A DNA stretch of 38,028 nucleotides from Chloroflexota bacterium (GTDB lineage: Bacteria > Chloroflexota > Dehalococcoidia > GIF9 > UBA5629): assembly GCA_026389715.1 (NCBI GenBank), contig JAPLHK010000096.1, forward strand, positions 9,417 through 47,444, written 5' to 3'. The notes beneath the pieces are model-generated. The model was given only the letters and a program-made list of their open reading frames with translations, was not told where the DNA came from and did not search any database. Shown here one piece after another: positions 1,760 to 21,741 of the stretch. The stretch's first letter is position 1. Each line of letters opens with the position of its first letter. Both the position numbers and the translations under genes were made by a program.

Positions 1760-2965
1760 TCATAGGCCGTATGCGCGGCGCAGCAGCGTAACAGGATGAA
1801 CTGTTTTCCAGCGTTTGCCCAGCCCGGCTGACAGGTAAGAACGGCAGCCCGGGCACTGCGATATCAACACAGCAGCGCCGGTGCCGGTTATATCATCCAG
1901 TTTTCGCTTCCTGATTCCACGCGAGAGGCCGGAATAGTCCATGAAAAAGGCCCCTCCCGCACCACAACACTTCTCCGGCTCTTCCATGGCGCTGTATTTT
2001 AAGCCGGGTATACCGGCCAGCAATTGTAAGGGGGCATCATTAAGTGTTGGAGTCCAGCCACGATGGCAGGGCACGTGGTAAGTGAAGCTCTCCGCCAGTG
2101 GCCCCGGCTCAACGGCCAGTCCGATGGTATTCAGGTAATCGCTGACCTCGAACACTTTAGGCGAGAGGGCAACGGCTTTAGCGAGCAGCGGGTCATCGGC
2201 GGGCAGCAATTTGGCTGTCTCGGAGCGCAGCATCATACCGCAGGAAGTGCAATCAACAATAATCGCATCAACCTCCTGTTCCGCCAGTATGGCGATATTA
2301 TTGCGCACTATCTTCTGCGCAGTTTTGATATCCCCCTCTCCCAGGGCGCGGATGCCGCAGCACATCAGCTTATCCGGTATCACAACCTCAATGCCGTTAT
2401 GGCCCAGCACCTTCATTACCGCTACACCGGTTTCCACATCCATGGTATTGGTCGCACAGCCCGTGAAATAGGCCACTTTGGCACGCTTTTTGCCCGTGGG
2501 CGGGTATCTGCCATGATACAGGCTGTCAAAGGTACGCAGGCTGACCTTCGGGAAGCCCCCGGGCGCGACATGCAGCTTCTGCGCCGCAGCCAGCATCAAG
2601 GCCGGGAACCCTTTGATGCCGCGCTTCTCCATCATCTCCCGGATAAAATAGTCCCGCAGCGGGTCATGCTTCCTGCCGCCGTAGAGGGCAGCCCGGGCAG
2701 TGATGATTATCTCGTGCACGGGCACGGCCCCCCCGCAGTCCTGCGTGCAGCTCGTGCAGAGCAGGCAGCGGTCGATAATCTCCCTTACGCGCGGGGTGAC
2801 CGGCATGGACTTTTTATACAGTGTCTGGTAGATGATATCGACGCGGGCGCGGGCCACATGCGTCTCCAGCATGTCCTCCAGGTAAACCGGGCAGACCGCC
2901 TCGCACAGCGCGCAGTGAGAGCATTTCTCCACCAGCCCCTTATAGTAATCAAGGTCGCCGATCAA
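1760..2965 (-). CDS. (Fe-S)-binding subunit, GlcF/LutA-like with CCG domains
   Basis: 401 aa with a TTG start 7 nt after GGAGG. Two ferredoxin-type motifs (CSHCALCEAVCP, CLLCTSCTQDCG) are followed by two Cys-rich CCG-type regions (MCCG, KCCGAGG). It starts 2 nt after the upstream FAD subunit. Confidence 0.8.
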   Translation of the reverse strand: MIGDLDYYKGLVEKCSHCALCEAVCPVYLEDMLETHVARARVDIIYQTLYKKSMPVTPRVREIIDRCLLCTSCTQDCGGAVPVHEIIITARAALYGGRKHDPLRDYFIREMMEKRGIKGFPALMLAAAQKLHVAPGGFPKVSLRTFDSLYHGRYPPTGKKRAKVAYFTGCATNTMDVETGVAVMKVLGHNGIEVVIPDKLMCCGIRALGEGDIKTAQKIVRNNIAILAEQEVDAIIVDCTSCGMMLRSETAKLLPADDPLLAKAVALSPKVFEVSDYLNTIGLAVEPGPLAESFTYHVPCHRGWTPTLNDAPLQLLAGIPGLKYSAMEEPEKCCGAGGAFFMDYSGLSRGIRKRKLDDITGTGAAVLISQCPGCRSYLSAGLGKRWKTVHPVTLLRRAYGL

Positions 2966-2967
2966 GA

Positions 2968-4371
2968 CTATGCCTCCGTCCAGATCTTGCCGGGATTCAT
3001 GATTCCCTTGGGATCAAAAGCATACTTGATTCGCTTCATCAGCTCTATCTGGTCCTTGCCCAACTCCTTTTCTAGGTAGGCTGACTTATGCAGGCCGATG
3101 CCGTGCTCGCCGGATATAGTGCCGCCCAGCTCGATGCCCTTCTCGATCATCAGCCTGATGGCCTCCTCGGCCTTCTGCTCCATCTCGGGGGTAATCTCAT
3201 ACAACTGCACTCCGGGGTGGATATTACCGTCGCCGGCGTGCCCGCTCATACCCACCGGGACACCCAGTGAGGCGCCTATCTCGCGGACTGCCTTCACCAT
3301 CTCAGGTATCTTATCACGAGGCACGGTCACGTCCTCGGAAATGGATTTCTGGAAGATGCGCAGAACAAGCGGCGAGAGGTTCCTTCGCGCCTTCCAGATG
3401 CCCGCGGCTTGCTTTTTGTCGTCGATAATCTTGATCTCGCGGGCACCCATCTTCTCCGCTATGCCCTTAATGACTCCGATATCTTCGGCTACGATGGCCG
3501 CTGTGCCATCCACTTCGATCAGCAGGTACACCTGGCCGTCCTGTGCAACGGGGATGGGACTGTAGGTATTCATCAGCCAGATCGCACCGACCTCCAGGTA
3601 TTCCAGTACCGCCGGTACAACTCCCTCGTAAATAATGCGCGACACCATTTCAGCGGCAAGCTGCGCGCTATCACACACCACAATCATGGTCTGACGCTCG
3701 GGTGGAAGCGGCAATAGGCGCAGGTTGACCTTGGTGATGACGGCCAGCGTCCCTTCCGACCCTGTAAGTATTTGCGTGATGTTGTACCCGTTGGCCTGCT
3801 TGACGCTGATACCGCCGGTATTGATGACCGAGCCATCGGGCAGCACAGCTTCCAGGCCGAGCACGTAGTTGGGAGTGGTCCCGTATTTGACGCCGCGCGG
3901 GCCGCCGGCGCGGCAGGCCACGTTGCCGCCCAGTGTGCAGACGTCCATGCTCTGGGGATCGGGCGGGTAGAAAAGCCTCTCTTTCTCCACGGCCCGGTGG
4001 AAATTGGCCAGCACCACTCCGCTCTCGGTGCGGGCCGTCATATTGCCTTTGCTTATCTCAAGTATTTTGTTCATGCGCTTCATGTCCAGCACGATGCCGC
4101 CCTTGATCGGCGTTGAACCGCCGGAGAGGCCGCTGCCCGCACCGCGAGGTGTAACCGGCACTGCACACTGATTGGCATAACTGAGCACTTTACAGACATC
4201 GTCAACCGACTCCACCAGCACCACCGCCTCAGGTTTGCCCTGCGCATAGTAACGGGTGGCGTCGCTGGAGTAGGCCAGCAGGTCCTCCGGTTCGGTTCTA
4301 ACCTTGCCGCCCCCCAGCAGCCGGCTCAAATCTTTCCTCAACGATTCTATGCGTGATCCTTCAGTTTTCAT
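2968..4371 (-). CDS. FAD-linked oxidase, GlcD / D-lactate dehydrogenase-like
   Basis: 467 aa with an ATG preceded by AAGGGGA. It has a PCMH-type FAD-binding region (PRGAGSGLSGG) and a C-terminal SGEHGIGLHK motif typical of the GlcD family. Confidence 0.85.
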   Translation of the reverse strand: MKTEGSRIESLRKDLSRLLGGGKVRTEPEDLLAYSSDATRYYAQGKPEAVVLVESVDDVCKVLSYANQCAVPVTPRGAGSGLSGGSTPIKGGIVLDMKRMNKILEISKGNMTARTESGVVLANFHRAVEKERLFYPPDPQSMDVCTLGGNVACRAGGPRGVKYGTTPNYVLGLEAVLPDGSVINTGGISVKQANGYNITQILTGSEGTLAVITKVNLRLLPLPPERQTMIVVCDSAQLAAEMVSRIIYEGVVPAVLEYLEVGAIWLMNTYSPIPVAQDGQVYLLIEVDGTAAIVAEDIGVIKGIAEKMGAREIKIIDDKKQAAGIWKARRNLSPLVLRIFQKSISEDVTVPRDKIPEMVKAVREIGASLGVPVGMSGHAGDGNIHPGVQLYEITPEMEQKAEEAIRLMIEKGIELGGTISGEHGIGLHKSAYLEKELGKDQIELMKRIKYAFDPKGIMNPGKIWTEA

Positions 4372-6643: not shown

Positions 6644-7807
6644 TCAGGGGACGGATTGCCCATGGATTGCTTCGTCGCCTGCGGGCTCCTCGCAATGACT
6701 GTTTTGGAGCGGCCGGCCCGCCCTGGCCTCGATACGCTCCTGTATGAGCCGGGCATTATTATACCTGGTCCCGATAGCATCGAGCGCGTCCCTGTCATCA
6801 CCATACCTGGCCGTTGCCTGCGCAAAGCGGTCAGCAAGACTTACGGGCCTGTCCCCGCTCACCAGCTTGTCGGCCAGGAAAAGGATTTCCCCGGCGCTGA
6901 TATCCTTACCATGACCCGGTTCGATGTCCATATGGGTGATAATAGCTTCCGCAATCCCATGAAATCCGGCCTCCCTGACTATGCGGGCGGCCTCGCGGGC
7001 GTGGCCCGGCTTTCCCCTGGCCAGGTCGTGCAGCAGCGCTGCCGCCAGCACGATCTCCCTGTCGATACCCGCGCCGGCACTATTGAGACAATCTGCGATA
7101 CGGCAGCCTATTTTAGCCACGGCCCGGCAATGCTGCCTTGTGTGTTCGTCCATGCCCGGCATCAGCTCCATCAGGGCTTCGCACTCAGGCTCAGACGGGA
7201 TTTCACGCCGCTTCCATCTCTCCTTCAGTTCCCCGTAATCTGCAGGATTATCGATATCGAAGAGTATATTGCCATCGGGCACCTCCACTTTCACTGTCTC
7301 TGATTCCAACTTCTCCAGCGCGCCTTTAAGGCCGTTTTCGCCTGTGAACCCCATTATCGCCCCCTGTAGCCCGGCGGAGATAAGCGGAGGATGCCCTTTG
7401 CGCCCCCGGAATGATGGTACCAGAATCCTGTTTTTCCCCTCCATAAACCTGTTGACCAGGCTGCGGATAGTTGCAGCGCGCACCAGGGGGATATCGGCGG
7501 GCAAGACGATAAAGGCCTGTGGCCCCTGTTCCATCGCCGATATACCGGCGATAACAGAGGAAAACATGCCTTCTTCATAACGGTCGTTGACGGCCGACCG
7601 CGCGCCTGCCCCTTCAATGACCGGGATTATCAGCTCTTTGCGGTAACCTGCTACAACGATAACCTCATCGATACCGGCCTGCCTGCATGTTTCCACTATG
7701 CGGGTCACTACAGGCCGTCCTCCCAGGTCGAGCAGCGGTTTGAATACACCCATCCGGCTGGAATGGCCGGCCGCCAGTATTATTGCCGTGATGCCTGGTT
7801 TTTCCAT
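6644..7807 (-). CDS. MobA/MocA-like molybdenum-cofactor nucleotidyltransferase fused to an HD-domain
   Basis: 387 aa. The N-terminus AIILAAGHSSRMGVFKPLL is the MocA/MobA NTP-transferase signature. The C-terminal ~170 aa carry HD-type residues (HCRAVAKIG ... LLHDLARGK). The ATG at 7807 overlaps the upstream xdhC-like gene by 28 nt. Confidence 0.75.
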   Translation of the reverse strand: MEKPGITAIILAAGHSSRMGVFKPLLDLGGRPVVTRIVETCRQAGIDEVIVVAGYRKELIIPVIEGAGARSAVNDRYEEGMFSSVIAGISAMEQGPQAFIVLPADIPLVRAATIRSLVNRFMEGKNRILVPSFRGRKGHPPLISAGLQGAIMGFTGENGLKGALEKLESETVKVEVPDGNILFDIDNPADYGELKERWKRREIPSEPECEALMELMPGMDEHTRQHCRAVAKIGCRIADCLNSAGAGIDREIVLAAALLHDLARGKPGHAREAARIVREAGFHGIAEAIITHMDIEPGHGKDISAGEILFLADKLVSGDRPVSLADRFAQATARYGDDRDALDAIGTRYNNARLIQERIEARAGRPLQNSHCEEPAGDEAIHGQSVP

Positions 7808-8844
7808 CGCCTCATCTGCGCCCTTATGTCGATAAGCTCCCCGACTATGCTCACCGCTATTTCCTCGGGTGTTTCGGTGTCTATCTTGACCCCGATGGGG
7901 CAGTGCACCTGCTCAATCTGTTGCGCGCTGACCCCACCCTCCATTAACGCGCGGTAAATAGTATCACGCTTGCGCGCGCTCCCTATCATGCCGATATAGC
8001 CGGCGCCGCTTTTCAGCGCCTGCTCCAGCACCACCTTGTCGCAAAGGTGTCCGCGGGTGACTATTACTATATAGCTCCCGGCATCGACAGGCAGGCCGTC
8101 GAAACATTTATCGAACGATTTCAATACAACTACTTCAATAGGACTGGCGAACCTTTGCGCATTAGCATACTCATCGCGGTCATCCAGCACCACAACGTTA
8201 AACCCCACGCGCAGCGCCAGGTCGGCCACCTCCCTGGAGATATGCCCTGCCCCGAAGATATAAACCGTCCCGCCGTTTATGATAACGTCGGCCCAGTACC
8301 TCTTCCCGTCATACTCGACCAGCGATGAACCGGTCAGCTCGCGGACGCTGTCCTTGAGCCTGGCCAATACCTCTGTATCTTCCCCCTCGTTTCCCACCGG
8401 CGAATCGTGGCCGCTCAACAACCAGTGCCGCCCCCCCACACCCCCATGGCCCGGAAGGGGCGTGACCAGGAAGCACTTGCGGTTATCCCGCCTGTGCTCT
8501 GCGATAGTTTCAAAGATACTTAACGTGCCGGTATCGGCCGGAATAAACTCGAGCAGAAGCTCAACCTTGCCGCCGCACACCATTTTGCCTTCCAGCAAAT
8601 CCCCGGTCATATCAAAGGCAAAAGTGGTTGAATGTTTCGATTTGAACAACTCCCGCGCATTCTGCATTGCAGCAGCCTCAACCAGGCCGCCGCCTACAGT
8701 GCCGTATATTTCACCGCTCTGCCTGATGAGCATACTGGCCCCTGTACCGCGCGGCGCCGAGCCTTTATCGCTTATCACCCTGGCAAATACGACATCTTCA
8801 CCCTGCTGCAACAGCCCGTGAATTGTGTCATAGATATCCGGCAT
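7780..8844 (-). CDS. XdhC/CoxI-family molybdoenzyme maturation factor
   Basis: 354 aa with an ATG 5 nt after GGGAGGA. It has an XdhC N-domain (VFARVISDKGSAPRGTGASMLI...GTVGGG) and a Rossmann-like C-domain (VYIFGAGHISREV). Confidence 0.8.
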   Translation of the reverse strand: MPDIYDTIHGLLQQGEDVVFARVISDKGSAPRGTGASMLIRQSGEIYGTVGGGLVEAAAMQNARELFKSKHSTTFAFDMTGDLLEGKMVCGGKVELLLEFIPADTGTLSIFETIAEHRRDNRKCFLVTPLPGHGGVGGRHWLLSGHDSPVGNEGEDTEVLARLKDSVRELTGSSLVEYDGKRYWADVIINGGTVYIFGAGHISREVADLALRVGFNVVVLDDRDEYANAQRFASPIEVVVLKSFDKCFDGLPVDAGSYIVIVTRGHLCDKVVLEQALKSGAGYIGMIGSARKRDTIYRALMEGGVSAQQIEQVHCPIGVKIDTETPEEIAVSIVGELIDIRAQMRRWKNQASRQ

Positions 8845-8929
8845 TCATGTCCTCCCACAAGTGCCCATATCGATTATTTTTTCGCATCGAAAGGCAATGA
8901 TACAGGACAATAACAGGCCCCTGTCAATA

Positions 8930-11038
8930 TTAATCATAGACAAACATGGTCTTGACAGCCTTGTATTTGCCCTTGTGGATATTAACATCCATCATTTTCT
9001 TATATTCATCCAGCTTGAACTTATGCGTGACCATGTCCTGCAGCTTCAAATCTTTTTTGCTGATAAGGTCGATGGCTATCTCAAACACATGTTTCGTTTG
9101 GCCTTTGCAGTCATGAAACCCGTAATAAAGGCTGCCCTTGAGTGTAATCAGCTTCACCCAGACCATGGTAGGGTCGAATTTAACCTCGCTGGATAAACCG
9201 ATCAGCGATACCACGCCTCCCGTCCTGACCGCCCTCAGCGCCATCGTCACGCTGTCTGATTTGGAAAGGCAATCATAAACGCGGTCGAACCCGCGCATCA
9301 TGGTGGTGGGCCCGAGCAGCGGCTTATAACATTTGCCGCCTGTTATCTCCGCTGCCTCCTCCAACTGATATTTGCCTGAGATTGTGTGATCGGCGCCGGA
9401 TTTCGTTGCCAGTGCCGCGGTGAAATTCGAGCTCACGGCAGCGGTTATTTTGCAGGGGATATCCAGAGCGCGTATGGCATGGATGACCATATTACCGATG
9501 ACGCCTCCGCCGATGACTAATACCTGCTCATCTTTCTGCGGTTTGTTGGAAAGCACGGCCTCCAGGGCGATGGCGAAGGGCTCAATCAGGGCCGCGGTTT
9601 CGGGGTTGATGCCCTGCGGTATTTTATAAACCTGGCTTTTATGAGCGATAATGTATTCGCCAAACCCGCCCGATGTCCCTGCACATACGTCCAGCGCCGT
9701 GCCAGGCGGCAGCTTACCCTCCGCGAAATTCTCGCAGCTGGACAACCCCAACCGGCATGCGCTGCATTCCGCTTCGATGCCCCTCACCTTACAGTTAAGC
9801 ACCGGGCAGACGGTTACAAGGTCACCGGCCTGCAAACCCGGTACACCGGCGCCGGCCCCGGCGATAGTCCCCGCAATCTCGTGCCCCAGGACCGAGGGGA
9901 ATGAGGTATAGGCTGACCAGGCCGGCGAATTCTTCAACATGACGGTATTGACATCACTGGCGCAGACCCCGCAGCGCCTGACTTTTATCTTTACCCAGTC
10001 GCCCGAGGGTAACTTCGGTTCCGGGATATCCACCATACGCACCGCGGAGATCGGCCCCGAAATATCCATGGCCTCAGCATAACTCATCCGTGTTTTCCAG
10101 CCAAGCTCTTTCTGTGCCCTCGATGTGTCTACGTCGTTGGCGCGGCCGACCAGGCCGACGGTATTCCGGCATATCTCGAATTTAGCGTCCAGAGGACGCA
10201 GCAATTTGTCATTGATAGTGCCCAGACCCCAGGCCGCGCTAAAAGGGATGTCGGAGATATTGATCTTCTTCCCGGCTATGGCAGCCAGGTCAAGAGTATA
10301 CTTGCGCCAGGTAACTGTGTAGTCATCGCGGAAATGGTAAGTCCGTCCCCGCGCGGCGTCCTTCTGCAGCGTCAGCATCACGCCGTCCACCAGGTTTTCC
10401 ACATACACCAGGCTGGCATTATATACACCACTGTCGATCATAGGGTATTTTGTGCTCTTCTGCATGACATCGATAGTATTGGTTACCCAGATGCTGCCCG
10501 GGCCGATGACATTGGACGGACGGATGACCGTGGCCGAAATCTTCCCTTTATCATGGTACTGATATACGAGCTTCTCCGTATCATATTTATAGTCACCGTA
10601 ATAGGAATTGCCCGTCCTGAACTCGTAATCGTCCTCCCGGTGGTAGCGCAGGTGGTCGGTCCTGCCACCGGCCCCGGCCGCACAGAAGGAGCTGAAATAT
10701 ACAAAGTGCGGCCGATTATCTTCTATCGCATCCAGCAAGTATTGTGTGGATACGTAAATGCCATCGTAAAACCTCTTCTGTTTTCCCCAGGGACCCAGCC
10801 AGGCCGCCAGGTGGATGATGATATCCATATCCTTGCAGATACCCTTGATCGACTCCGGCCTGGTGAGGTCAGCAATGACCACCTTAATGCCCTGGTCACG
10901 CAGGCGCTGCGCGTTAGTTTCAGATATATCAAGCGCCGTGACCGCATACCCCTCCTTGACCAGCCGCGGGCACAGGAACGACCCGATAAAGCCGCCGGCG
11001 CCGGTTACCAGCACCTTCTTGCCTGTCGCACTATCCAT
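8930..11038 (-). CDS. fusion protein: extended-SDR (NAD-dependent epimerase/dehydratase/reductase-like) + zinc-type medium-chain alcohol dehydrogenase
   Basis: 702 aa with an ATG preceded by AGGAGGGA. Residues 1-325 carry VTGAGGFIGS and a YGDYK (YxxxK) motif. Residues ~328-702 carry RCGVCASD and GHEIAGTI (catalytic Zn ligands), a structural-Zn Cys cluster (CPVLNC...CSACRLGLSSC) and VIGGGVIGN. An in-frame Met lies at the junction (ATG 10069-10067). Confidence 0.75.
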   Translation of the reverse strand: MDSATGKKVLVTGAGGFIGSFLCPRLVKEGYAVTALDISETNAQRLRDQGIKVVIADLTRPESIKGICKDMDIIIHLAAWLGPWGKQKRFYDGIYVSTQYLLDAIEDNRPHFVYFSSFCAAGAGGRTDHLRYHREDDYEFRTGNSYYGDYKYDTEKLVYQYHDKGKISATVIRPSNVIGPGSIWVTNTIDVMQKSTKYPMIDSGVYNASLVYVENLVDGVMLTLQKDAARGRTYHFRDDYTVTWRKYTLDLAAIAGKKINISDIPFSAAWGLGTINDKLLRPLDAKFEICRNTVGLVGRANDVDTSRAQKELGWKTRMSYAEAMDISGPISAVRMVDIPEPKLPSGDWVKIKVRRCGVCASDVNTVMLKNSPAWSAYTSFPSVLGHEIAGTIAGAGAGVPGLQAGDLVTVCPVLNCKVRGIEAECSACRLGLSSCENFAEGKLPPGTALDVCAGTSGGFGEYIIAHKSQVYKIPQGINPETAALIEPFAIALEAVLSNKPQKDEQVLVIGGGVIGNMVIHAIRALDIPCKITAAVSSNFTAALATKSGADHTISGKYQLEEAAEITGGKCYKPLLGPTTMMRGFDRVYDCLSKSDSVTMALRAVRTGGVVSLIGLSSEVKFDPTMVWVKLITLKGSLYYGFHDCKGQTKHVFEIAIDLISKKDLKLQDMVTHKFKLDEYKKMMDVNIHKGKYKAVKTMFVYD

Positions 11039-11069
11039 GGATAACCATCCCTCCTATGAAGTACTGAAC

Positions 11070-12200
11070 TCAATAGCCGTGCTCCCCGTTCCATTTGCGC
11101 GTTTCGTCCAGCATGGCATAGTAGTTCTCGATTTTAACGTAATTAGCCACGGAGTTGACGGTACCCATGCAGTAGCCGCCACCCGGCGCGCAGTGCTTCA
11201 GTATCTGGCGCGTGCGCTGTCTCACTTCGTCTACCGTCCCGCGCGCCATCAAGTCCATGTCTACGCCTCCCAGGATGGCAATACGGTCATGGAATTTGTC
11301 ATACCATTGTTCTACCGGCAGGATGGCATCCTCGAAGCTATGCCTGGCATCAATGCCCACCTCGATGAGGTCTTCCATAAGGGCCATGACCTGCCCGCAG
11401 GAATGGAAAAGGAACAGTTTACCCTTTTTGTGACAGGCATATGCAATGCGCTTCAGTCTGGGGATATAGTACTTTCTCAGGAAACGTGGAGACAGGGTCG
11501 TCCCCCCCTTAAAACCCAGGTCATCCGAATAAAAAATGGCCCCGGTACCTGCATGCGCCGCAGACATGTCGATAGCACATTCAGCAATACGGGTGAGTTG
11601 CTCAAGTATATCCTCCACCAGCTCCGGTTCCTCTATGCTTTTAATAGCCATGTGCTGGGTACCCATGAGTTCACTCAGGTCTTCATAAATTCCGTTGTAC
11701 ATGACCATGATTTTCATGCCGTCGGGCATAACTCCCGCTGCGTAATCAAGGGCAAGCATGCTTATCTGTTCAAGAGAAGGCCATTTATAGGCTTCATATT
11801 CTTCGCGCGTGGTGATAATACCCTGGCCCTCTTCCTTCCAGGCCCGTTTCTGTCTGCGCCGGTCTGTATCGGTGGCCAATTCCCTGCGGGTCTTGGTCAT
11901 CGGAATCACCGGTATCATTGTGACATAATCGTATCCAACTGCTTTGCTGAAAGCTACATTAAGCTCAATCAGCCTGATGCCCATTTCCAGCGCTTCCTGA
12001 TCATCGATCAGTTGACCCGCATTGGTGAAAAGCTCGACTGCCCTGGCGGCCGGATAGTCGATGCCCGTGACCTCGGACATAATCTCGGCATCGGGAAATA
12101 ATTCGATGATAGGTACCGGCCCTTGCGTGACTTGACGCCTCAGCACCTTTTCCAGGTATTCCCAGTTGTACGTAGTCTTGAACGGCCTCTCAATGGGCAT
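11070..12200 (-). CDS. uroporphyrinogen-decarboxylase (URO-D)/MtaA-like family protein
   Basis: 376 aa with an ATG 5 nt after AGGAGG. The C-terminal half (FYSDDLGFKGG, LFLFHSCGQV, ILGGVD) resembles the URO-D/methylcobamide methyltransferase TIM-barrel family. It lies 31 nt upstream of the fusion gene. Confidence 0.6.
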   Translation of the reverse strand: MPIERPFKTTYNWEYLEKVLRRQVTQGPVPIIELFPDAEIMSEVTGIDYPAARAVELFTNAGQLIDDQEALEMGIRLIELNVAFSKAVGYDYVTMIPVIPMTKTRRELATDTDRRRQKRAWKEEGQGIITTREEYEAYKWPSLEQISMLALDYAAGVMPDGMKIMVMYNGIYEDLSELMGTQHMAIKSIEEPELVEDILEQLTRIAECAIDMSAAHAGTGAIFYSDDLGFKGGTTLSPRFLRKYYIPRLKRIAYACHKKGKLFLFHSCGQVMALMEDLIEVGIDARHSFEDAILPVEQWYDKFHDRIAILGGVDMDLMARGTVDEVRQRTRQILKHCAPGGGYCMGTVNSVANYVKIENYYAMLDETRKWNGEHGY

Positions 12201-12403
12201 GCTAACCTCCTGCCTATGTGATGAACTTTAAGCAGACAGACCCTGTTAAATTTATGGGATTTCGCCGTTTTCGCCGTCCAGCCTTATAATCCCGACGATT
12301 CACTATTCTAAAGCTTGTTATTCAGCTTACAGATAACCTTGACTTCATTGTAAATACATTCGCTATGAATTCTTGATTATCACTACAACGGGCAGCAGGG
12401 GCA

Positions 12404-14009: not shown

Positions 14010-15743
14010 CTACGGTCTGAATCCCCAGCGTTTTTCCATCTGCTCGGCTGTCATATCCAGTCCCAGCGTGCCGCCGGGGTTCATCACATGATGCGGGTCG
14101 AAATGATCGCGCAGGGCGCGAATTAATTCGAATTGCTGCTTGCCTATCTGCCCCTCAAGCCAGGGCCCCGTTTGCTTGCCGATGCCGTGGTGGTGGCTCA
14201 TGGCCGCCCCGGCCTTCTGGATAGCGTCGAGTACACCGTATTGCAGCTCGAGGTACTCATTGATCTCCTTCATTTTGGCCAGGAAAATAAAATACAGGTT
14301 GCCACCCTGCGGATAGGCATGCGACAGGTGGGTCATGCAAATGGTGCGCGGGCGCGACTTGATATATGCTCTGACCTCGCTGTGCACACTGGCCAGGTTT
14401 TCCCACCTCACAGCACATTCCAGCGTGTCTATCAGTACGCCATAATCCATCAGGTCCTCGCGCATGAAGGGATCGGTGTAACGGCTCTTCTCCCACGATT
14501 GCGTGACCTTAGCCGCCGTCAGGCTGAATGCATGGTATTTCTTGAAGATGCTGTTGACCTTCTTATCGATCAGCCTGGCTAAATCTTTATCACCATCCGC
14601 CAGTCCGATGAACATACAGCGCTGCATAGGCTTGTATCCCAGCAACTGCAAGATCGAATCGACCGGGGTGCCGTGCACGTGATACATGCGCATGGCCACG
14701 TCCGTCTCTTCAGGGTCGGAGAGGCGGAATACTGACGGGAAGCCGAACTCGCCCTGCATCACCTCGCGGCAGGCCTCAAGCCCATCCTCCCAGGTCTTGA
14801 AGAGGTAGGAAAACCGGCGTCTATTTTCCGGTTGGTAACGGCACAGCCTCAGCGTGCAGCTTACCAGTATGCCAAAGGTGCCTTCGCTGCCTATCATGAT
14901 CTGGTCGAAATCCGGCCCGGTGGCCGAGCGCGGGAAATCCGCAGTTTTAAAATCCCCGATCGGCGTCACATACTCCTGCGAGATGACCATGTCTTCTATC
15001 TTGCCGTAATAGGTGGAGTTCTGGCCCGCCCCCCGCGTCACCACCCAGCCGCCCACGCTGGAATGCTCGAAAGACTGCGGGAAATGGCCCACGGTGTAGC
15101 GGCGTTTCGCACCCAGCGTTTTCGGAGCATTGTTCAGGATACGCTCCAATTCAGGACCCATGATGCCGGGTTGCACCGTGACAGTCTGGTCGGTCTCGTT
15201 GATGCTGACTACCTTGTCCATGTGTGCATTCATATCCAGGCAGACTCCACCCCTGACCGCCTCCTTGCCGCGTGTCACACTGGAATTGCCGCCGGCAGCG
15301 TACAGCGGCAGCCGGTTTTCGTCACAGTACTTGACTAATGCTTCAACATCACGCCTATCGCGGGGGTAGACAACGGCATCAGGAAGGTTCTCCACGATAT
15401 GATAGCGGAGGCGCAGGACATCTATGATGGCAGCGCCGTAGGAGGCGCGTGTCCGGTTATAGGTATCGGTGAGAACATTATCCGCGCCGGCCATATCCTT
15501 TAAAGCCGCTATCTGGCCGGACGATAATTTGCAGGGGACATCTATATCCAGCTCCTCCACGCAGAGGCTGGGCTTTTGAAATTCCTCATCCTTCATGCCG
15601 AAAGCGTCTTTGAGCAGGTGGAACATGCCGGGGTTGGGATGTTTGAAGCCCTTCGGATCACCGTATTTAATCAGGCTGCGGTAGGAGCGCGCCGGCGCTT
15701 CCTCCTCACACCACTGCGGGTAGAATCCATGCTTGCTTGCCAT
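14010..15743 (-). CDS. FAD-linked oxidase, alkylglycerone-phosphate synthase (AGPS)-like
   Basis: 577 aa with an ATG 4 nt after GGAGGG. It has a PCMH FAD domain (LYAAGGNSSVTRG), an ~100-aa N-terminal extension and SHHHGIGKQ (HHH loop) in place of the GEHGIG of GlcD-type enzymes. Confidence 0.7.
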   Translation of the reverse strand: MASKHGFYPQWCEEEAPARSYRSLIKYGDPKGFKHPNPGMFHLLKDAFGMKDEEFQKPSLCVEELDIDVPCKLSSGQIAALKDMAGADNVLTDTYNRTRASYGAAIIDVLRLRYHIVENLPDAVVYPRDRRDVEALVKYCDENRLPLYAAGGNSSVTRGKEAVRGGVCLDMNAHMDKVVSINETDQTVTVQPGIMGPELERILNNAPKTLGAKRRYTVGHFPQSFEHSSVGGWVVTRGAGQNSTYYGKIEDMVISQEYVTPIGDFKTADFPRSATGPDFDQIMIGSEGTFGILVSCTLRLCRYQPENRRRFSYLFKTWEDGLEACREVMQGEFGFPSVFRLSDPEETDVAMRMYHVHGTPVDSILQLLGYKPMQRCMFIGLADGDKDLARLIDKKVNSIFKKYHAFSLTAAKVTQSWEKSRYTDPFMREDLMDYGVLIDTLECAVRWENLASVHSEVRAYIKSRPRTICMTHLSHAYPQGGNLYFIFLAKMKEINEYLELQYGVLDAIQKAGAAMSHHHGIGKQTGPWLEGQIGKQQFELIRALRDHFDPHHVMNPGGTLGLDMTAEQMEKRWGFRP

Positions 15744-20463: not shown

Positions 20464-21741
20464 CTACAATAGCGGATTCATCACTCTTCCCACGAAGATG
20501 ACCGACCCTGTCTTGATATCCCTGATAAGAAAGATGAAGGGATGGTCCACCGTTACCTCCAGCGGTATTACCGGCATGGCGGTAGCCCGCATGATGACGG
20601 CTGTGGCAGCCGCGGCCTCGGTGCCGGATTCATCGACCGACACGAAGGCCTTGTGTACCACCTCGGATATGGAGAGTTCCCGGTTTCCCGTCATTCCGGA
20701 GAAATCAGCCTGCCCCGAGAAGGCGATGGGCATGCCCATGTCCGCCAGTACCTTGCCCAGGCTGAACTCGGACTCATATTTGAAGCTCGGCAGGCTGAGC
20801 GCAACCTGTTTAGGAGTAATCCCGTTTATGATTGAGGCCACTTTTCCTGCGTCCAACGACTTTTCGAATTCGGCGAATTTACCCTCTTCGGGCAGTAATA
20901 CCACCATCTCGAGCTCACGCCCGTCATAAGGAAGCGTCACCGCCTGGAAACCGCTGCCTCCGGCGTATCCCAGGCGCTCGGTCTGGTGCATCATCGGCAC
21001 CTTGACGGCAGATCCATCGGCCAGGTGGAAATCGGCCGGTTGCGTAGCGTTTTTCTCGAAATTGTTGGCCCAGGCGGCATTGAAATAGATAGCATTGGTC
21101 AGCACCAGCCTGGTCAGAGGATCGATGGCGCCGGGTGGTATCAGGTCCTTGATGCGCTGCTCTGTCTGGTCTTCGACCCACTTGTTGATGGTTATGCGGG
21201 AATCATCCGGCGCCGTGCGGAAATCCAGCGTCCTGAGTCCCGTGCCGTAGTCCTCTGCCAGCAGATCGAGATATTGCGCCAGGAAAGGATATCCTGTCTG
21301 CCCCCAGATGGCATTGACGATATTTAAGCGGAAGCCTTTACCATCCTTGCCTTTGGCTCCCTGACCTCGGGCCGATAGTTCCTGGTCAAGGCCGTTAAAG
21401 GCCGGGTGCAGGCGGTCCTGCGGCAGGGTGTAGTGCAGCGTTGTCGCCATCTGTTTTTCCGTAGTATCACGCGCACCGGCATAGGTCGTGGCCAGGGCGA
21501 GAGAAATCGAATACGGAGAATAAAAGAGGTTGCCCTGCGTTCCATTAAGCGCCTGGTACAGGTCCAGTGCAAAGGCGTTGTTGCCGTCAACCAGAGCGGC
21601 CAGGTCGGCCTGGCTCACGGCCGGGGCTACCCTCGGCTTGTCCGACCTCTGCACGTCACTTGATGACGGCTGCGCGCAAGCCGCCAGGCCGGTCAGCAAA
21701 ACAAGGCCCAAACTTGTCACGTACAACCATTTTGATTTCAT
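20464..21741 (-). CDS. serpin-family protease inhibitor, lipoprotein
   Basis: 425 aa with an ATG 7 nt after AGGAGG and lipobox LTGLAAC. It has the serpin hinge/RCL ESGTEAAAATAVIMRATAMPVIP and a C-terminal VDHPFIFLIRD...GRVMNP. Confidence 0.9.
   Translation of the reverse strand: MKSKWLYVTSLGLVLLTGLAACAQPSSSDVQRSDKPRVAPAVSQADLAALVDGNNAFALDLYQALNGTQGNLFYSPYSISLALATTYAGARDTTEKQMATTLHYTLPQDRLHPAFNGLDQELSARGQGAKGKDGKGFRLNIVNAIWGQTGYPFLAQYLDLLAEDYGTGLRTLDFRTAPDDSRITINKWVEDQTEQRIKDLIPPGAIDPLTRLVLTNAIYFNAAWANNFEKNATQPADFHLADGSAVKVPMMHQTERLGYAGGSGFQAVTLPYDGRELEMVVLLPEEGKFAEFEKSLDAGKVASIINGITPKQVALSLPSFKYESEFSLGKVLADMGMPIAFSGQADFSGMTGNRELSISEVVHKAFVSVDESGTEAAAATAVIMRATAMPVIPLEVTVDHPFIFLIRDIKTGSVIFVGRVMNPLL

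What the first reader, a model, noticed from the sequence alone, without database searches (positions are those of the whole stretch)
8930..11038. Seamless fusion of an extended-SDR reductase/epimerase domain to a zinc alcohol dehydrogenase (702 aa)
Seen in sequence:
- One uninterrupted ORF. Residues 1-325 have TGAGGFIGS and YGDYK (extended SDR).
- Residues ~328-702 have all catalytic and structural Zn ligands plus the GxGxxG of a medium-chain dehydrogenase.
- There is no linker. An in-frame Met (ATG 10069-10067, ...AEA-M-DISGPISAVRMVDIPEPKL) sits exactly where a separate ADH gene would start. This suggests fusion of two adjacent genes, or possibly an internal start.

Inference: two sequential NAD(P)-dependent reductions on one polypeptide would fit acyl-CoA or acyl-ester to aldehyde to alcohol chemistry. 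That chemistry would supply the fatty alcohol an AGPS-type enzyme (14010-15743) needs. A nucleotide-sugar or polyol two-step oxidoreduction is equally possible.

I do not recall this domain pair as a described architecture.
Basis: partly seen in the sequence, partly recalled or inferred. Interest (0 to 1): 0.6.

Follow-up and report, generated by a model that had tools for sequence, protein, structure and literature searches.

The report
Deletion-made SDR–zinc dehydrogenase gene fusion
The 702-residue two-domain reading frame is real in this assembly, but it exists only because 133 bases spanning the boundary of two neighbouring dehydrogenase genes are missing, so it is a young, single-genome fusion that may be damaged, not an established new enzyme architecture.

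Summary
The ORF at 8930-11038 (-) and its motifs are confirmed: an extended SDR (residues 1-326) joined to a zinc medium-chain dehydrogenase (327-702).

How it arose is now clear. The nearest relatives (SDR half 94-95% nt identity, MDR half 86%) carry two genes. These are a 341-aa SDR and a 404-aa MDR, joined as TGAcATG. The window lacks exactly 133 nt: the SDR's last 15 codons, its stop, one spacer base and the MDR's first 28 codons. This puts the two frames in register.

The "in-frame Met" (M324) belongs to the SDR's conserved C-terminal helix. It is not the MDR start.

The deletion removes conserved, confidently folded elements of both enzymes. No fused form was found in the other 16 genomes of the genus or in public proteins and contigs. 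Two distant lineages carry full-length SDR-MDR fusions with linkers, so the two enzymes are probably partners.

The MDR's most conserved neighbour is a ThDP enzyme, not the AGPS module. The AGPS-like gene is in 15 of 16 genus genomes, but this SDR is in only 2. The fatty-alcohol-for-AGPS idea is therefore unsupported.

Reads could not be checked.

The scan had noted the ThDP/Zn-ADH pairing before, on other DNA.

The parts
8930..11038 (-). Fused ORF, 702 aa (P0001)
10061..11038 (-). SDR-derived part, codons 1-326 (ends ...AEAMDI). Extended SDR with TGAGGFIGS and S116/S117...Y147xxxK151. It lacks the last 15 residues (IADWVKNVYLKKQGG) present in relatives.
   Evidence: 94-95% nt identity to the 341-aa SDR genes of L001 and G003
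8930..10060 (-). MDR-derived part, codons 327-702 plus stop (starts SGPISAVRMVD...). Zinc dehydrogenase of the polyol-dehydrogenase type. It lacks the first 28 residues (MKALQFNVSVPQFLALKIFGSVNKTAHY) of the 404-aa relatives.
10058..10063 (-). Deletion junction (GATATT|TCGGGG). 133 nt are missing here relative to L001, G003 and G004, with only about 3-5 nt of microhomology.
10067..10069 (-). ATG of M324. This is a conserved SDR helix residue, not an MDR start codon.
11050..11055 (-). AGGAGG Shine-Dalgarno-like motif, 11 nt upstream of the fused ORF's ATG
   Evidence: read from sequence
11070..12200 (-). Context: URO-D/MtaA-like gene, 31 nt upstream on the same strand. It is also directly upstream of the SDR in G003, and of the MDR in L027.
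7780..8844 (-). Context: XdhC-family aldehyde-oxidoreductase maturation factor, 85 nt downstream on the same strand

Best explanation
The ORF is a lineage-specific chimera. A single 133-nt deletion removed four things: the last 15 codons and the TGA of an extended-SDR gene, the one-base spacer, and the first 28 codons of the downstream 404-aa zinc MDR gene. In relatives the two genes are joined as TGAcATG, which suggests translational coupling. They lie in frames offset by +1, so a deletion of 3n+1 bases joined them in frame.

The two enzymes are probably pathway partners. If the product folds, it is a two-headed NAD(P)-dependent oxidoreductase. It would carry out two hydroxyl/carbonyl steps on one small, still unknown substrate. 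I infer an aldehyde, alpha-hydroxyketone or diol type, because the MDR is associated with a ThDP acetolactate-synthase/2-hydroxyacyl-CoA-lyase-like enzyme and, in this genus, with aldehyde-oxidoreductase genes.

The deletion took away conserved structural elements of both halves. I therefore rate the protein as about equally likely to be impaired, especially the MDR half, or still active.

Shown: the deletion origin, the split state in relatives, and the loss of conserved elements. Inferred: the partnership, the substrate class and the activity state.
For: Deletion origin:
- L001 has an SDR at 6974-7999 (341 aa) and an MDR at 8001-9215 (404 aa) as separate called genes.
- The DNA alignment shows one clean gap of 133 nt in the window.
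- The arithmetic fits: 326 + 376 = 702.
- G003 and G004 (same genus) have the two genes at 94% and 87-88% protein identity, with no fusion.
- All 13+ protein clusters at 85-90% identity to the MDR half are 404 aa long and start with MKALQFNV.

Lost elements are conserved and structured:
- M1/K2/A3 of the MDR are at least 90% conserved in 31 family members.
- The AF2 model of the intact MDR (pLDDT 90.6) places a strand at 2-6 and helices at 10-19 and 24-27, at pLDDT 88-93.
- In the fused model, residues 326-347 become coil at pLDDT 64-69, and the strand equivalent to 35-39 is lost.
- The SDR C-terminal 'I..WVK..Y' helix is present in nearly all of the 22 orthologues aligned.

Partnership:
- An orthologous SDR (41-47% identity) lies within a few genes of the MDR in about 12 loci from Desulfobacterota, Spirochaetota and others.
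- Two other fused proteins differ widely in sequence and linker, and I infer independent fusions. P0002 (751 aa) and P0133 (765 aa) keep both termini and have linkers.

Residual function is possible:
- All catalytic residues are intact.
- Pairwise dN/dS of the MDR half is about 0.10, the same as among relatives.
- The half has only one extra deviation from the conserved columns, P423A.
- This is the only close copy in the genome, and the MDR is found in 16 of 16 genus genomes.
Against:
- The exact protein and the junction were not found in any other public assembly or metagenome contig.
- The genome is a scaffolded short-read MAG with 60 N-runs.
- Its aldehyde-oxidoreductase orthologue on another scaffold carries a clean 46-nt frameshifting deletion next to an N-gap. 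Assembly-made deletions therefore cannot be excluded.
- An in-frame outcome has a 1 in 3 chance even for a neutral or harmful deletion.
- dN/dS cannot date the deletion.
Confidence: 0.78

Rival explanations
1. Assembly artefact or minority variant. The organism really has two separate genes. The 133 nt were lost when contigs were joined, or the assembler followed a rare deletion allele.
For: - G000 is a scaffolded short-read MAG with 60 N-runs of 1-109 nt.
- Another gene (the AOR orthologue on C14) shows a 24-N gap, a clean 46-nt frameshifting deletion and a 118-nt shortfall within 3.5 kb, while it is intact in G003, G009, G011 and G012.
- Contigs of G011 and G012 end within 3-16 nt of the equivalent point of their MDR genes, so this spot is hard to assemble.
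- The fused form was seen nowhere else.
Against: - The junction lies about 9-10 kb inside a 38-kb N-free stretch.
- Microhomology is only about 3-5 nt. By inference from how de Bruijn assemblers work, a k-mer path across the junction needs real reads that contain it.
- Medium indels between G000 and G003/G012 occur in both directions, not only as deletions in G000.
- Every other gene in the window is intact.
Confidence: 0.15
2. The fusion is an adaptive bifunctional reductase: the SDR reduces acyl-CoA or ester to aldehyde, and the MDR reduces aldehyde to alcohol. This supplies fatty alcohol to the nearby AGPS-like enzyme for ether-lipid synthesis.
For: - The pair lies 3 kb from the AGPS-like/FGGY/GlpD-like genes on the same strand in the window and in L001.
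- There is a Pfam NAD_binding_4 ('male sterility') hit of 43 bits on the SDR half.
- Orthologues show weak thioester-reductase similarity (55 bits vs a 213 cut-off).
Against: - The AGPS-like orthologue is in 15 of 16 genus genomes, but this SDR in only 2.
- Among 71 MDR loci, the AGPS module is adjacent only in the window's own lineage. Elsewhere there are only 22-25% FAD-oxidase hits in two loci.
- The NAD_binding_4 hit lies under a much stronger Epimerase hit.
- The MDR groups with secondary-alcohol/polyol dehydrogenases.
- The deletion removes conserved parts rather than adding a linker.
Confidence: 0.05
3. The fused ORF is transcribed, but the MDR half is made separately from an internal start: M324 or a downstream GTG/ATG such as '...AVRMVD'. 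The cell would then still have two proteins, a truncated SDR and an N-terminally shortened MDR.
For: A GAGG lies 2 nt upstream of the M324 ATG (read from the sequence).
Against: - The same GAGGCCATG is inside the intact SDR gene of G003, where it is not a start.
- The spacing is too short for a typical Shine-Dalgarno site (established knowledge).
- Any such product would still lack the conserved strand and helix of residues 1-28.
Confidence: 0.03

Closest known systems
Split SDR (341 aa) + MDR (404 aa) gene pair of same-genus Dehalococcoidia MAGs (L001/L026 = CAVWAG010000011.1; G003:C283; G004:C11)
   Same: - Same genes and same order, with the same XdhC gene directly downstream. The same URO-D-like gene lies upstream: directly in G003, and with a GH13 gene in between in L001.
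- SDR part 94-95% nt identical, MDR part 86%.
   Different: - Relatives keep the stop codon, the 1-nt spacer, the SDR C-terminal helix and the MDR N-terminal strand and helices. The window lacks these 133 nt.
- L001 also has a GH13 gene and a PIN gene that the window lacks.
Full-length SDR-MDR fusion proteins P0002 (751 aa, Logan SRR27069943) and P0133 (765 aa, ENA ERZ27297438)
   Same: - Same domain order: Epimerase-type SDR, then ADH_N + ADH_zinc_N of the same 404-aa MDR family.
- P0002 is 52% identical over 99% of the query.
   Different: - Both keep the complete SDR C-terminus and the MDR 'MKA...' N-terminus, joined by a linker of about 10-35 residues (read-through type). The window's fusion lacks 43 residues and has no linker.
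- Their genomic contexts differ.
Polyol-dehydrogenase branch of zinc MDRs: L-threonine 3-dehydrogenase (2dfv, 2d8a), (2R,3R)-butanediol dehydrogenase (6ie0), sorbitol dehydrogenase (1e3j, 1pl6)
   Same: - Same fold (Foldseek E about 1e-25 to 1e-27, TM to target 0.77-0.81).
- Both zinc sites and the Rossmann motif are present.
   Different: - Only 21-26% identity, and below every NCBIfam cut-off (TDH 124 vs 458 bits).
- The family has an extra N-terminal helix insert, giving 404 aa against about 345.
Extended SDRs HpnA, OleD and 3-beta-HSD/sterol-4-alpha-carboxylate dehydrogenase type
   Same: Best-scoring named families for the SDR half. The Rossmann motif and the S...YxxxK catalytic residues are present.
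   Different: - Scores are far under the cut-offs (HpnA 94/368, OleD 88/580, SdmB 39/600, GalE 45/262).
- No hopanoid, olefin or sterol genes are nearby.
Debia-MDR of Desulfococcus biacutus (acetone-induced zinc ADH, PMC5123277)
   Same: A zinc MDR induced together with a ThDP enzyme in an anaerobe. It reduces C3-C5 aldehydes.
   Different: It is a 38-kDa MDR of another subfamily (cd08285), and it is not adjacent to the ThDP gene (loci 04514 vs 04566). I rejected it as a functional model.

Membership tests
Extended SDR (Pfam PF01370 Epimerase) | Score above the Pfam gathering cut-off | tested here: met
   113 bits vs 20.9
Extended SDR (Pfam PF01370 Epimerase) | N-terminal TGxxGxxG dinucleotide motif and Ser...YxxxK catalytic residues | tested here: met
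   TGAGGFIGS at 12-20. S116/S117, Y147 and K151 fall on invariant columns of 22 orthologues.
Extended SDR (Pfam PF01370 Epimerase) | Complete C-terminal substrate-binding domain, including the last helix | tested here: not met
   The 15 residues IADWVKNVYLKKQGG are absent. The conserved 'I..WVK..Y' helix is cut after 'AEAMDI'.
UDP-glucose 4-epimerase GalE (TIGR01179) | Score above the curated cut-off | tested here: not met
   45 vs 262.3 bits
HpnA (TIGR03466) / OleD (NF042422) | Score above the curated cut-off | tested here: not met
   93.6 vs 367.65 and 88.4 vs 580
Fatty acyl-CoA / thioester reductase (PF07993, TIGR01746) | Specific family match that is not explained by a general SDR match | tested here: inconclusive
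   - PF07993 scores 43 bits (cut-off 20.1), but it lies under the 113-bit Epimerase hit.
- TIGR01746 is not among the best 25 of 55 listed for the window's protein, and scores 37-55 vs 213 in orthologues.
Zinc-containing MDR alcohol dehydrogenase (PF08240 + PF00107) | Both domains above their cut-offs; catalytic Cys/His/Glu, four structural-zinc Cys, and GxGxxG | tested here: met
   71.9 vs 23.5 and 61 vs 31.8 bits. C359, H386, E387, C416, C425, C428, C435 and G510/512/515 are present.
Zinc-containing MDR alcohol dehydrogenase (PF08240 + PF00107) | Complete GroES-like catalytic domain, including the first beta-strand | tested here: not met
   Residues 1-28 of the 404-aa family (strand 2-6, helices 10-19 and 24-27, pLDDT 88-93) are deleted.
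L-threonine 3-dehydrogenase (TIGR00692) / sorbitol, butanediol and galactitol-1-P dehydrogenases | Score above the curated cut-off | tested here: not met
   123.6 vs 458.35 for TDH and 93 vs 550 for galactitol-1-P DH. PDB relatives are 21-26% identical.
Natural read-through SDR-MDR fusions (P0002/P0133 type) | Both parental termini retained and joined by a linker | tested here: not met
   43 residues are missing and there is no linker.

The most novel reading that the evidence does not exclude
The deletion-fused protein is active, and its two sites hand a substrate from one to the other. It would belong to an undescribed, widely distributed module: extended SDR, a 119-aa hydrophobic protein, a ThDP ALS/HACL-like enzyme and the 404-aa MDR. 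This module would make or break an acyloin- or diol-type metabolite. In this Dehalococcoidia lineage it would have been recruited next to the AGPS/FGGY/GlpD-like ether-lipid module, and a one-step deletion would have created a working bifunctional enzyme.
Probability: 0.1. Interest if true: 0.55.

Novelty: new member of a known kind. Interest (0 to 1): 0.25.

Why it matters
On its own this is a small evolutionary event. It shows how one deletion across a TGAcATG gene boundary can create a two-domain ORF.

It also carries a warning. 'Seamless' fusions in MAGs should be compared with close relatives before they are read as new architectures.

The more useful by-product concerns the 404-aa zinc MDR family. 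It is uncharacterised and spread over many anaerobe phyla. It is strongly linked to a ThDP enzyme, an extended SDR and a small hydrophobic protein, and three fusion forms with an extended SDR support an SDR-MDR partnership. That module is a better target for biochemistry than this particular truncated fusion.

Tried and rejected
- Junction scan: a scan of metagenome contigs with a degenerate 23-nt pattern gave 17 hits. All were chance 'AMDISGP' matches in unrelated sequence.
- Exact-protein look-up of P0001: not on record.
- Complex prediction with the intact SDR (A7) and MDR (A4): verdict 'no answer', score 0.00. This is evidence neither for nor against binding.
- Acetone-pathway lead (ThDP enzyme plus zinc MDR in Desulfococcus biacutus): the characterised Debia-MDR is a 38-kDa enzyme of another subfamily and is not adjacent to the ThDP gene, so I rejected it.
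- The protein-atlas search: only generic 'sorbitol/zinc dehydrogenase' names.
- Alignment A5 misplaced the distant SDRs onto the MDR half and was discarded. A6 was used for the fold instead.
- Relaxed selection: pairwise dN/dS of the MDR half (0.09-0.12) is no higher than among relatives (0.10-0.16), so no decay signal was found.
- Recombination breakpoint at the junction: identity to G003 already falls about 290 nt upstream and is mosaic throughout, so there is no specific link.
- One DNA search of relatives failed and was repeated.
Full report
OBSERVATION

The ORF at 8930..11038 on the minus strand is real. It starts with ATG, is 702 aa long and has no interruption. An AGGAGG motif lies 11 nt upstream of the start.

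Pfam places an extended-SDR 'Epimerase' domain at residues 9-234 (113 bits). The longer GDP_Man_Dehyd model reaches residue 323. ADH_N lies at 347-475 and ADH_zinc_N at 514-646.

TGAGGFIGS starts at residue 12 and YGDYK at 147. The catalytic zinc residues C359/H386/E387, the four structural-zinc cysteines 416/425/428/435 and the G510xG512xxG515 motif all fall on invariant columns of the MDR family alignment.

HOW THE ORF AROSE

A protein search returned many hits at 85-90% identity. All of them are 404-aa stand-alone MDRs covering only the second half of the query. They begin MKALQFNVS(I/V)PQFLALK... and align to the query only from about residue 327.

The contig of one such protein is L001, identical to CAVWAG010000011.1, a Chloroflexota MAG. 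It has the same gene order as the window, but with two genes:
- an SDR of 341 aa at 6974-7999;
- an MDR of 404 aa at 8001-9215.

The SDR stop and the MDR start read TGAcATG.

BLASTN of the window's gene against L001, G003 (L010) and G004 (L011) gives two blocks. Gene nt 1-978 match at 94-95%, and nt 980-2109 match at 86%. Between them the relatives have 134 nt where the window has 1.

Read against G003, the window's '...AEAMDI' is the SDR sequence. In G003 the SDR continues '-IADWVKNVYLKKQGG*'. The window's 'SGPISAV...' is MDR residue 29 onward.

The missing piece adds up as follows:
- 15 codons of the SDR;
- the TGA stop;
- 1 spacer base;
- 28 codons of the MDR.

This totals 133 nt, and 326 + 376 = 702. 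The MDR frame is +1 relative to the SDR frame, so a 3n+1 deletion joins them in frame. Microhomology at the breakpoints is only about 3-5 nt (ATT/ATTT).

The 'in-frame Met' at 10069-10067 is M324. It belongs to the 'Y.EAM' motif that is conserved in the C-terminal helix of the SDR orthologues. It is therefore not a vestigial MDR start. The 'seamless' join has no linker because sequence was removed, not added.

HOW WIDESPREAD THE FUSED FORM IS

In 60 related genomes, the MDR was found in 16 of 16 genomes of the same genus, and never fused. The SDR orthologue was found only in G003 and G004.

The exact protein is not on record elsewhere. A junction-specific pattern found only chance matches in metagenome contigs.

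An exhaustive HMMER search of 1.84 billion representative proteins listed one other two-domain protein among the best 150. This is P0133 (765 aa), with Epimerase + ADH_N + ADH_zinc_N. Together with P0002 (751 aa, 52% identity over 99% of the query), that makes two natural fusions.

Both keep the complete SDR C-terminus and the 'MKA...' MDR N-terminus, joined by a linker of about 10-35 residues. The two are only 30% identical to each other and sit in different contexts. I infer from this that they arose independently.

The domain pair is therefore rare but recurrent. The window's version is a third form, and the only one made by truncating both partners.

WHAT WAS LOST

The MDR N-terminus is conserved across 31 family members; M1, K2 and A3 are at least 90% conserved.

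An AF2 model of the intact 404-aa MDR has mean pLDDT 90.6 and pTM 0.92. It folds residues 1-28 confidently (pLDDT 88-93) into strand 2-6, helix 10-19 and helix 24-27. Strand 35-39 follows.

In the AF2 model of the fused protein (pLDDT 87.5, pTM 0.65), residues 326-347 are coil at pLDDT 64-69, and that following strand is no longer formed. The low pTM means the relative orientation of the two domains is not defined. Whether the active sites face each other cannot be said.

On the SDR side, the conserved terminal 'I..WVK..Y' helix is cut in the middle.

Elsewhere the protein looks healthy:
- All catalytic residues are present.
- Only one further deviation from highly conserved columns occurs, P423A in the structural-zinc lobe.
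- dN/dS of the MDR half against relatives is 0.09-0.12, no higher than the 0.10-0.16 seen among relatives.

This means either that the deletion is recent or that the fusion still works. These data cannot separate the two.

REAL OR ARTEFACT

Reads could not be examined.

Points for a real deletion:
- The junction lies about 9-10 kb inside a 38-kb stretch without N.
- There is almost no microhomology, so a k-mer assembler could cross the junction only with reads that contain it (inference).
- Medium-sized indels between this genome and G003/G012 go in both directions.

Points for caution:
- The genome is a scaffolded short-read MAG with 60 N-runs.
- Its aldehyde-oxidoreductase orthologue on scaffold C14 has an N-gap, a clean 46-nt frameshifting deletion and a 118-nt shortfall. 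The gene is intact in four relatives.
- Contigs of G011 and G012 end within a few bases of the equivalent point of their MDR genes.

I put the artefact or minority-allele reading at about 15%.

WHAT THE TWO ENZYMES DO

Neither half reaches the cut-off of any specific family.
- MDR half: closest to threonine, sorbitol, butanediol and galactitol-1-P dehydrogenases at 21-26% identity. This is the secondary-alcohol/polyol branch.
- SDR half: closest to HpnA, OleD and 3-beta-HSD-type enzymes. It is not GalE.

Neighbourhood analysis of 71 loci holding the MDR gave the following:
- A ThDP enzyme of the acetolactate-synthase/2-hydroxyacyl-CoA-lyase type is next to the MDR in 37 loci, in most of them directly upstream.
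- A small 119-aa hydrophobic ORF with no Pfam match is present in 16.
- An orthologue of this SDR (41-47% identity) is present in about 12.
- In Bacillaceae, a class II aldolase-like protein follows the MDR in 11.

Within Dehalococcoidia, the MDR sits beside aldehyde-oxidoreductase genes or their maturation genes. The window's genome has no orthologue of that ThDP enzyme; the best match is 32% identical.

The most economical reading is that the MDR interconverts an aldehyde or alpha-hydroxyketone and an alcohol or diol, and that the SDR performs a second carbonyl/hydroxyl step on the same small molecule. The substrate is unknown.

THE AGPS IDEA

The AGPS-like/FGGY/GlpD-like genes noted earlier by this scan (e1-4431097) are indeed nearby. 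But the adjacency to the SDR-MDR pair is confined to the window's own small lineage. The AGPS-like gene occurs in 15 of 16 genus genomes, while the SDR occurs in only 2.

The module clearly works without this SDR. Nothing ties the pair to acyl-CoA or fatty alcohol chemistry beyond a weak, overlapped NAD_binding_4 hit.

VERDICT

- 'Fusion of adjacent genes' is right, and the mechanism is now known.
- The internal-start and fatty-alcohol readings are not supported.
- The feature is a young, single-genome, deletion-made fusion that may be impaired. It is of low to moderate interest.
- The conserved ThDP/MDR/SDR module behind it deserves separate attention. Other windows of this scan have noted ThDP + Zn-ADH clusters (e1-1448463, e1-3838828).

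Noticed in passing
L023:5766-10212; also L042, L045, L054, L056, L062, L063, L070: A conserved, apparently uncharacterised module occurs in Desulfobacterota, Spirochaetota, Leptospirales and Bacteriovoracaceae MAGs. Its order is extended SDR, a 119-aa hydrophobic ORF (no Pfam match; starts MRFSLLLF..., ends ...QWFNDGVKLVM), a ThDP ALS/HACL-like enzyme, then the 404-aa zinc MDR. A TetR gene is often nearby.
   Followed up: partly
L071-L073, L075, L076, L078, L083, L086 (Bacillaceae genomes): In cultured Bacillaceae the MDR orthologue (40-43% identity) is followed directly by a 362-aa class II aldolase-like protein. DAGK/YegS-type lipid kinase genes lie upstream. No ThDP enzyme or SDR is nearby.
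   Followed up: partly
P0217, P0228, P0232, P0240, P0250, P0260 (597-901 aa): Members of the same MDR family carry long C-terminal extensions of 200-500 residues with no Pfam match.
   Followed up: no
P0095-P0112, P0181 (602-614 aa): Orthologues of the SDR half also occur fused to a classical SDR (Epimerase + adh_short), mainly in Thermodesulfobacteriota. In L021 and L030 the two SDR types are adjacent separate genes upstream of the MDR.
   Followed up: partly
G000:C103 (L004:1453-3594, minus strand): The same genome has a second, distant (26% identity) adjacent pair: an extended SDR (323 aa) followed by a zinc MDR (379 aa). It is flanked by an MFS transporter and a metallo-beta-lactamase-fold gene.
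   Followed up: partly
G000:C14:9332-11744 (L126): The genome's best orthologue of the Mo aldehyde oxidoreductase is broken by a 24-N scaffold gap and a clean 46-nt frameshifting deletion. A 118-nt shortfall lies just downstream. The gene is intact (818 aa) in G003, G009, G011 and G012. This is either gene decay or an assembly problem.
   Followed up: partly
G004:C4:10800-14400 (L125) and G004:C4:18353-20083, 82290-84560: G004 carries a second copy of the SDR-MDR pair (94% nt identity to L001) with many frameshifts. The AGPS-like and AOR genes on the same contig also contain stops. This is either a decaying duplicate region or an error-rich contig.
   Followed up: partly
window 11036-12392 vs L001:3133-6957: L001/G004 has a GH13 alpha-amylase-family gene (542 aa) between the URO-D-like gene and the SDR. 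It also has a PIN-domain gene between the FGGY and URO-D-like genes. Both are absent from the window, and G003 also lacks the GH13 gene.
   Followed up: partly
window 10430-11440 vs 8930-10360: Identity to G003 is mosaic. It is 96-100% across the URO-D end and the SDR start, but 79-93% across the SDR end and the MDR. dS is 0.16 for the SDR half and 0.56 for the MDR half. This suggests recombination within the genus.
   Followed up: partly
G012:C191 (L162/L169): In G012 one MDR copy (84% identity) lies about 240 nt downstream of the FGGY kinase, with no URO-D-like or SDR gene between them. The MDR's upstream neighbour therefore varies within the genus.
   Followed up: no
window 20464-21741 (-): A full-length bacterial serpin (Pfam Serpin, 395 bits) lies in this Dehalococcoidia MAG.
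   Followed up: no
window 1760-4371 (-): A GlcD-like FAD-linked oxidase (467 aa) is followed by a CCG/4Fe-4S protein (401 aa). This is a lactate/glycolate-dehydrogenase-type pair, and it lies downstream of the Mo/W ABC transporter genes.
   Followed up: no
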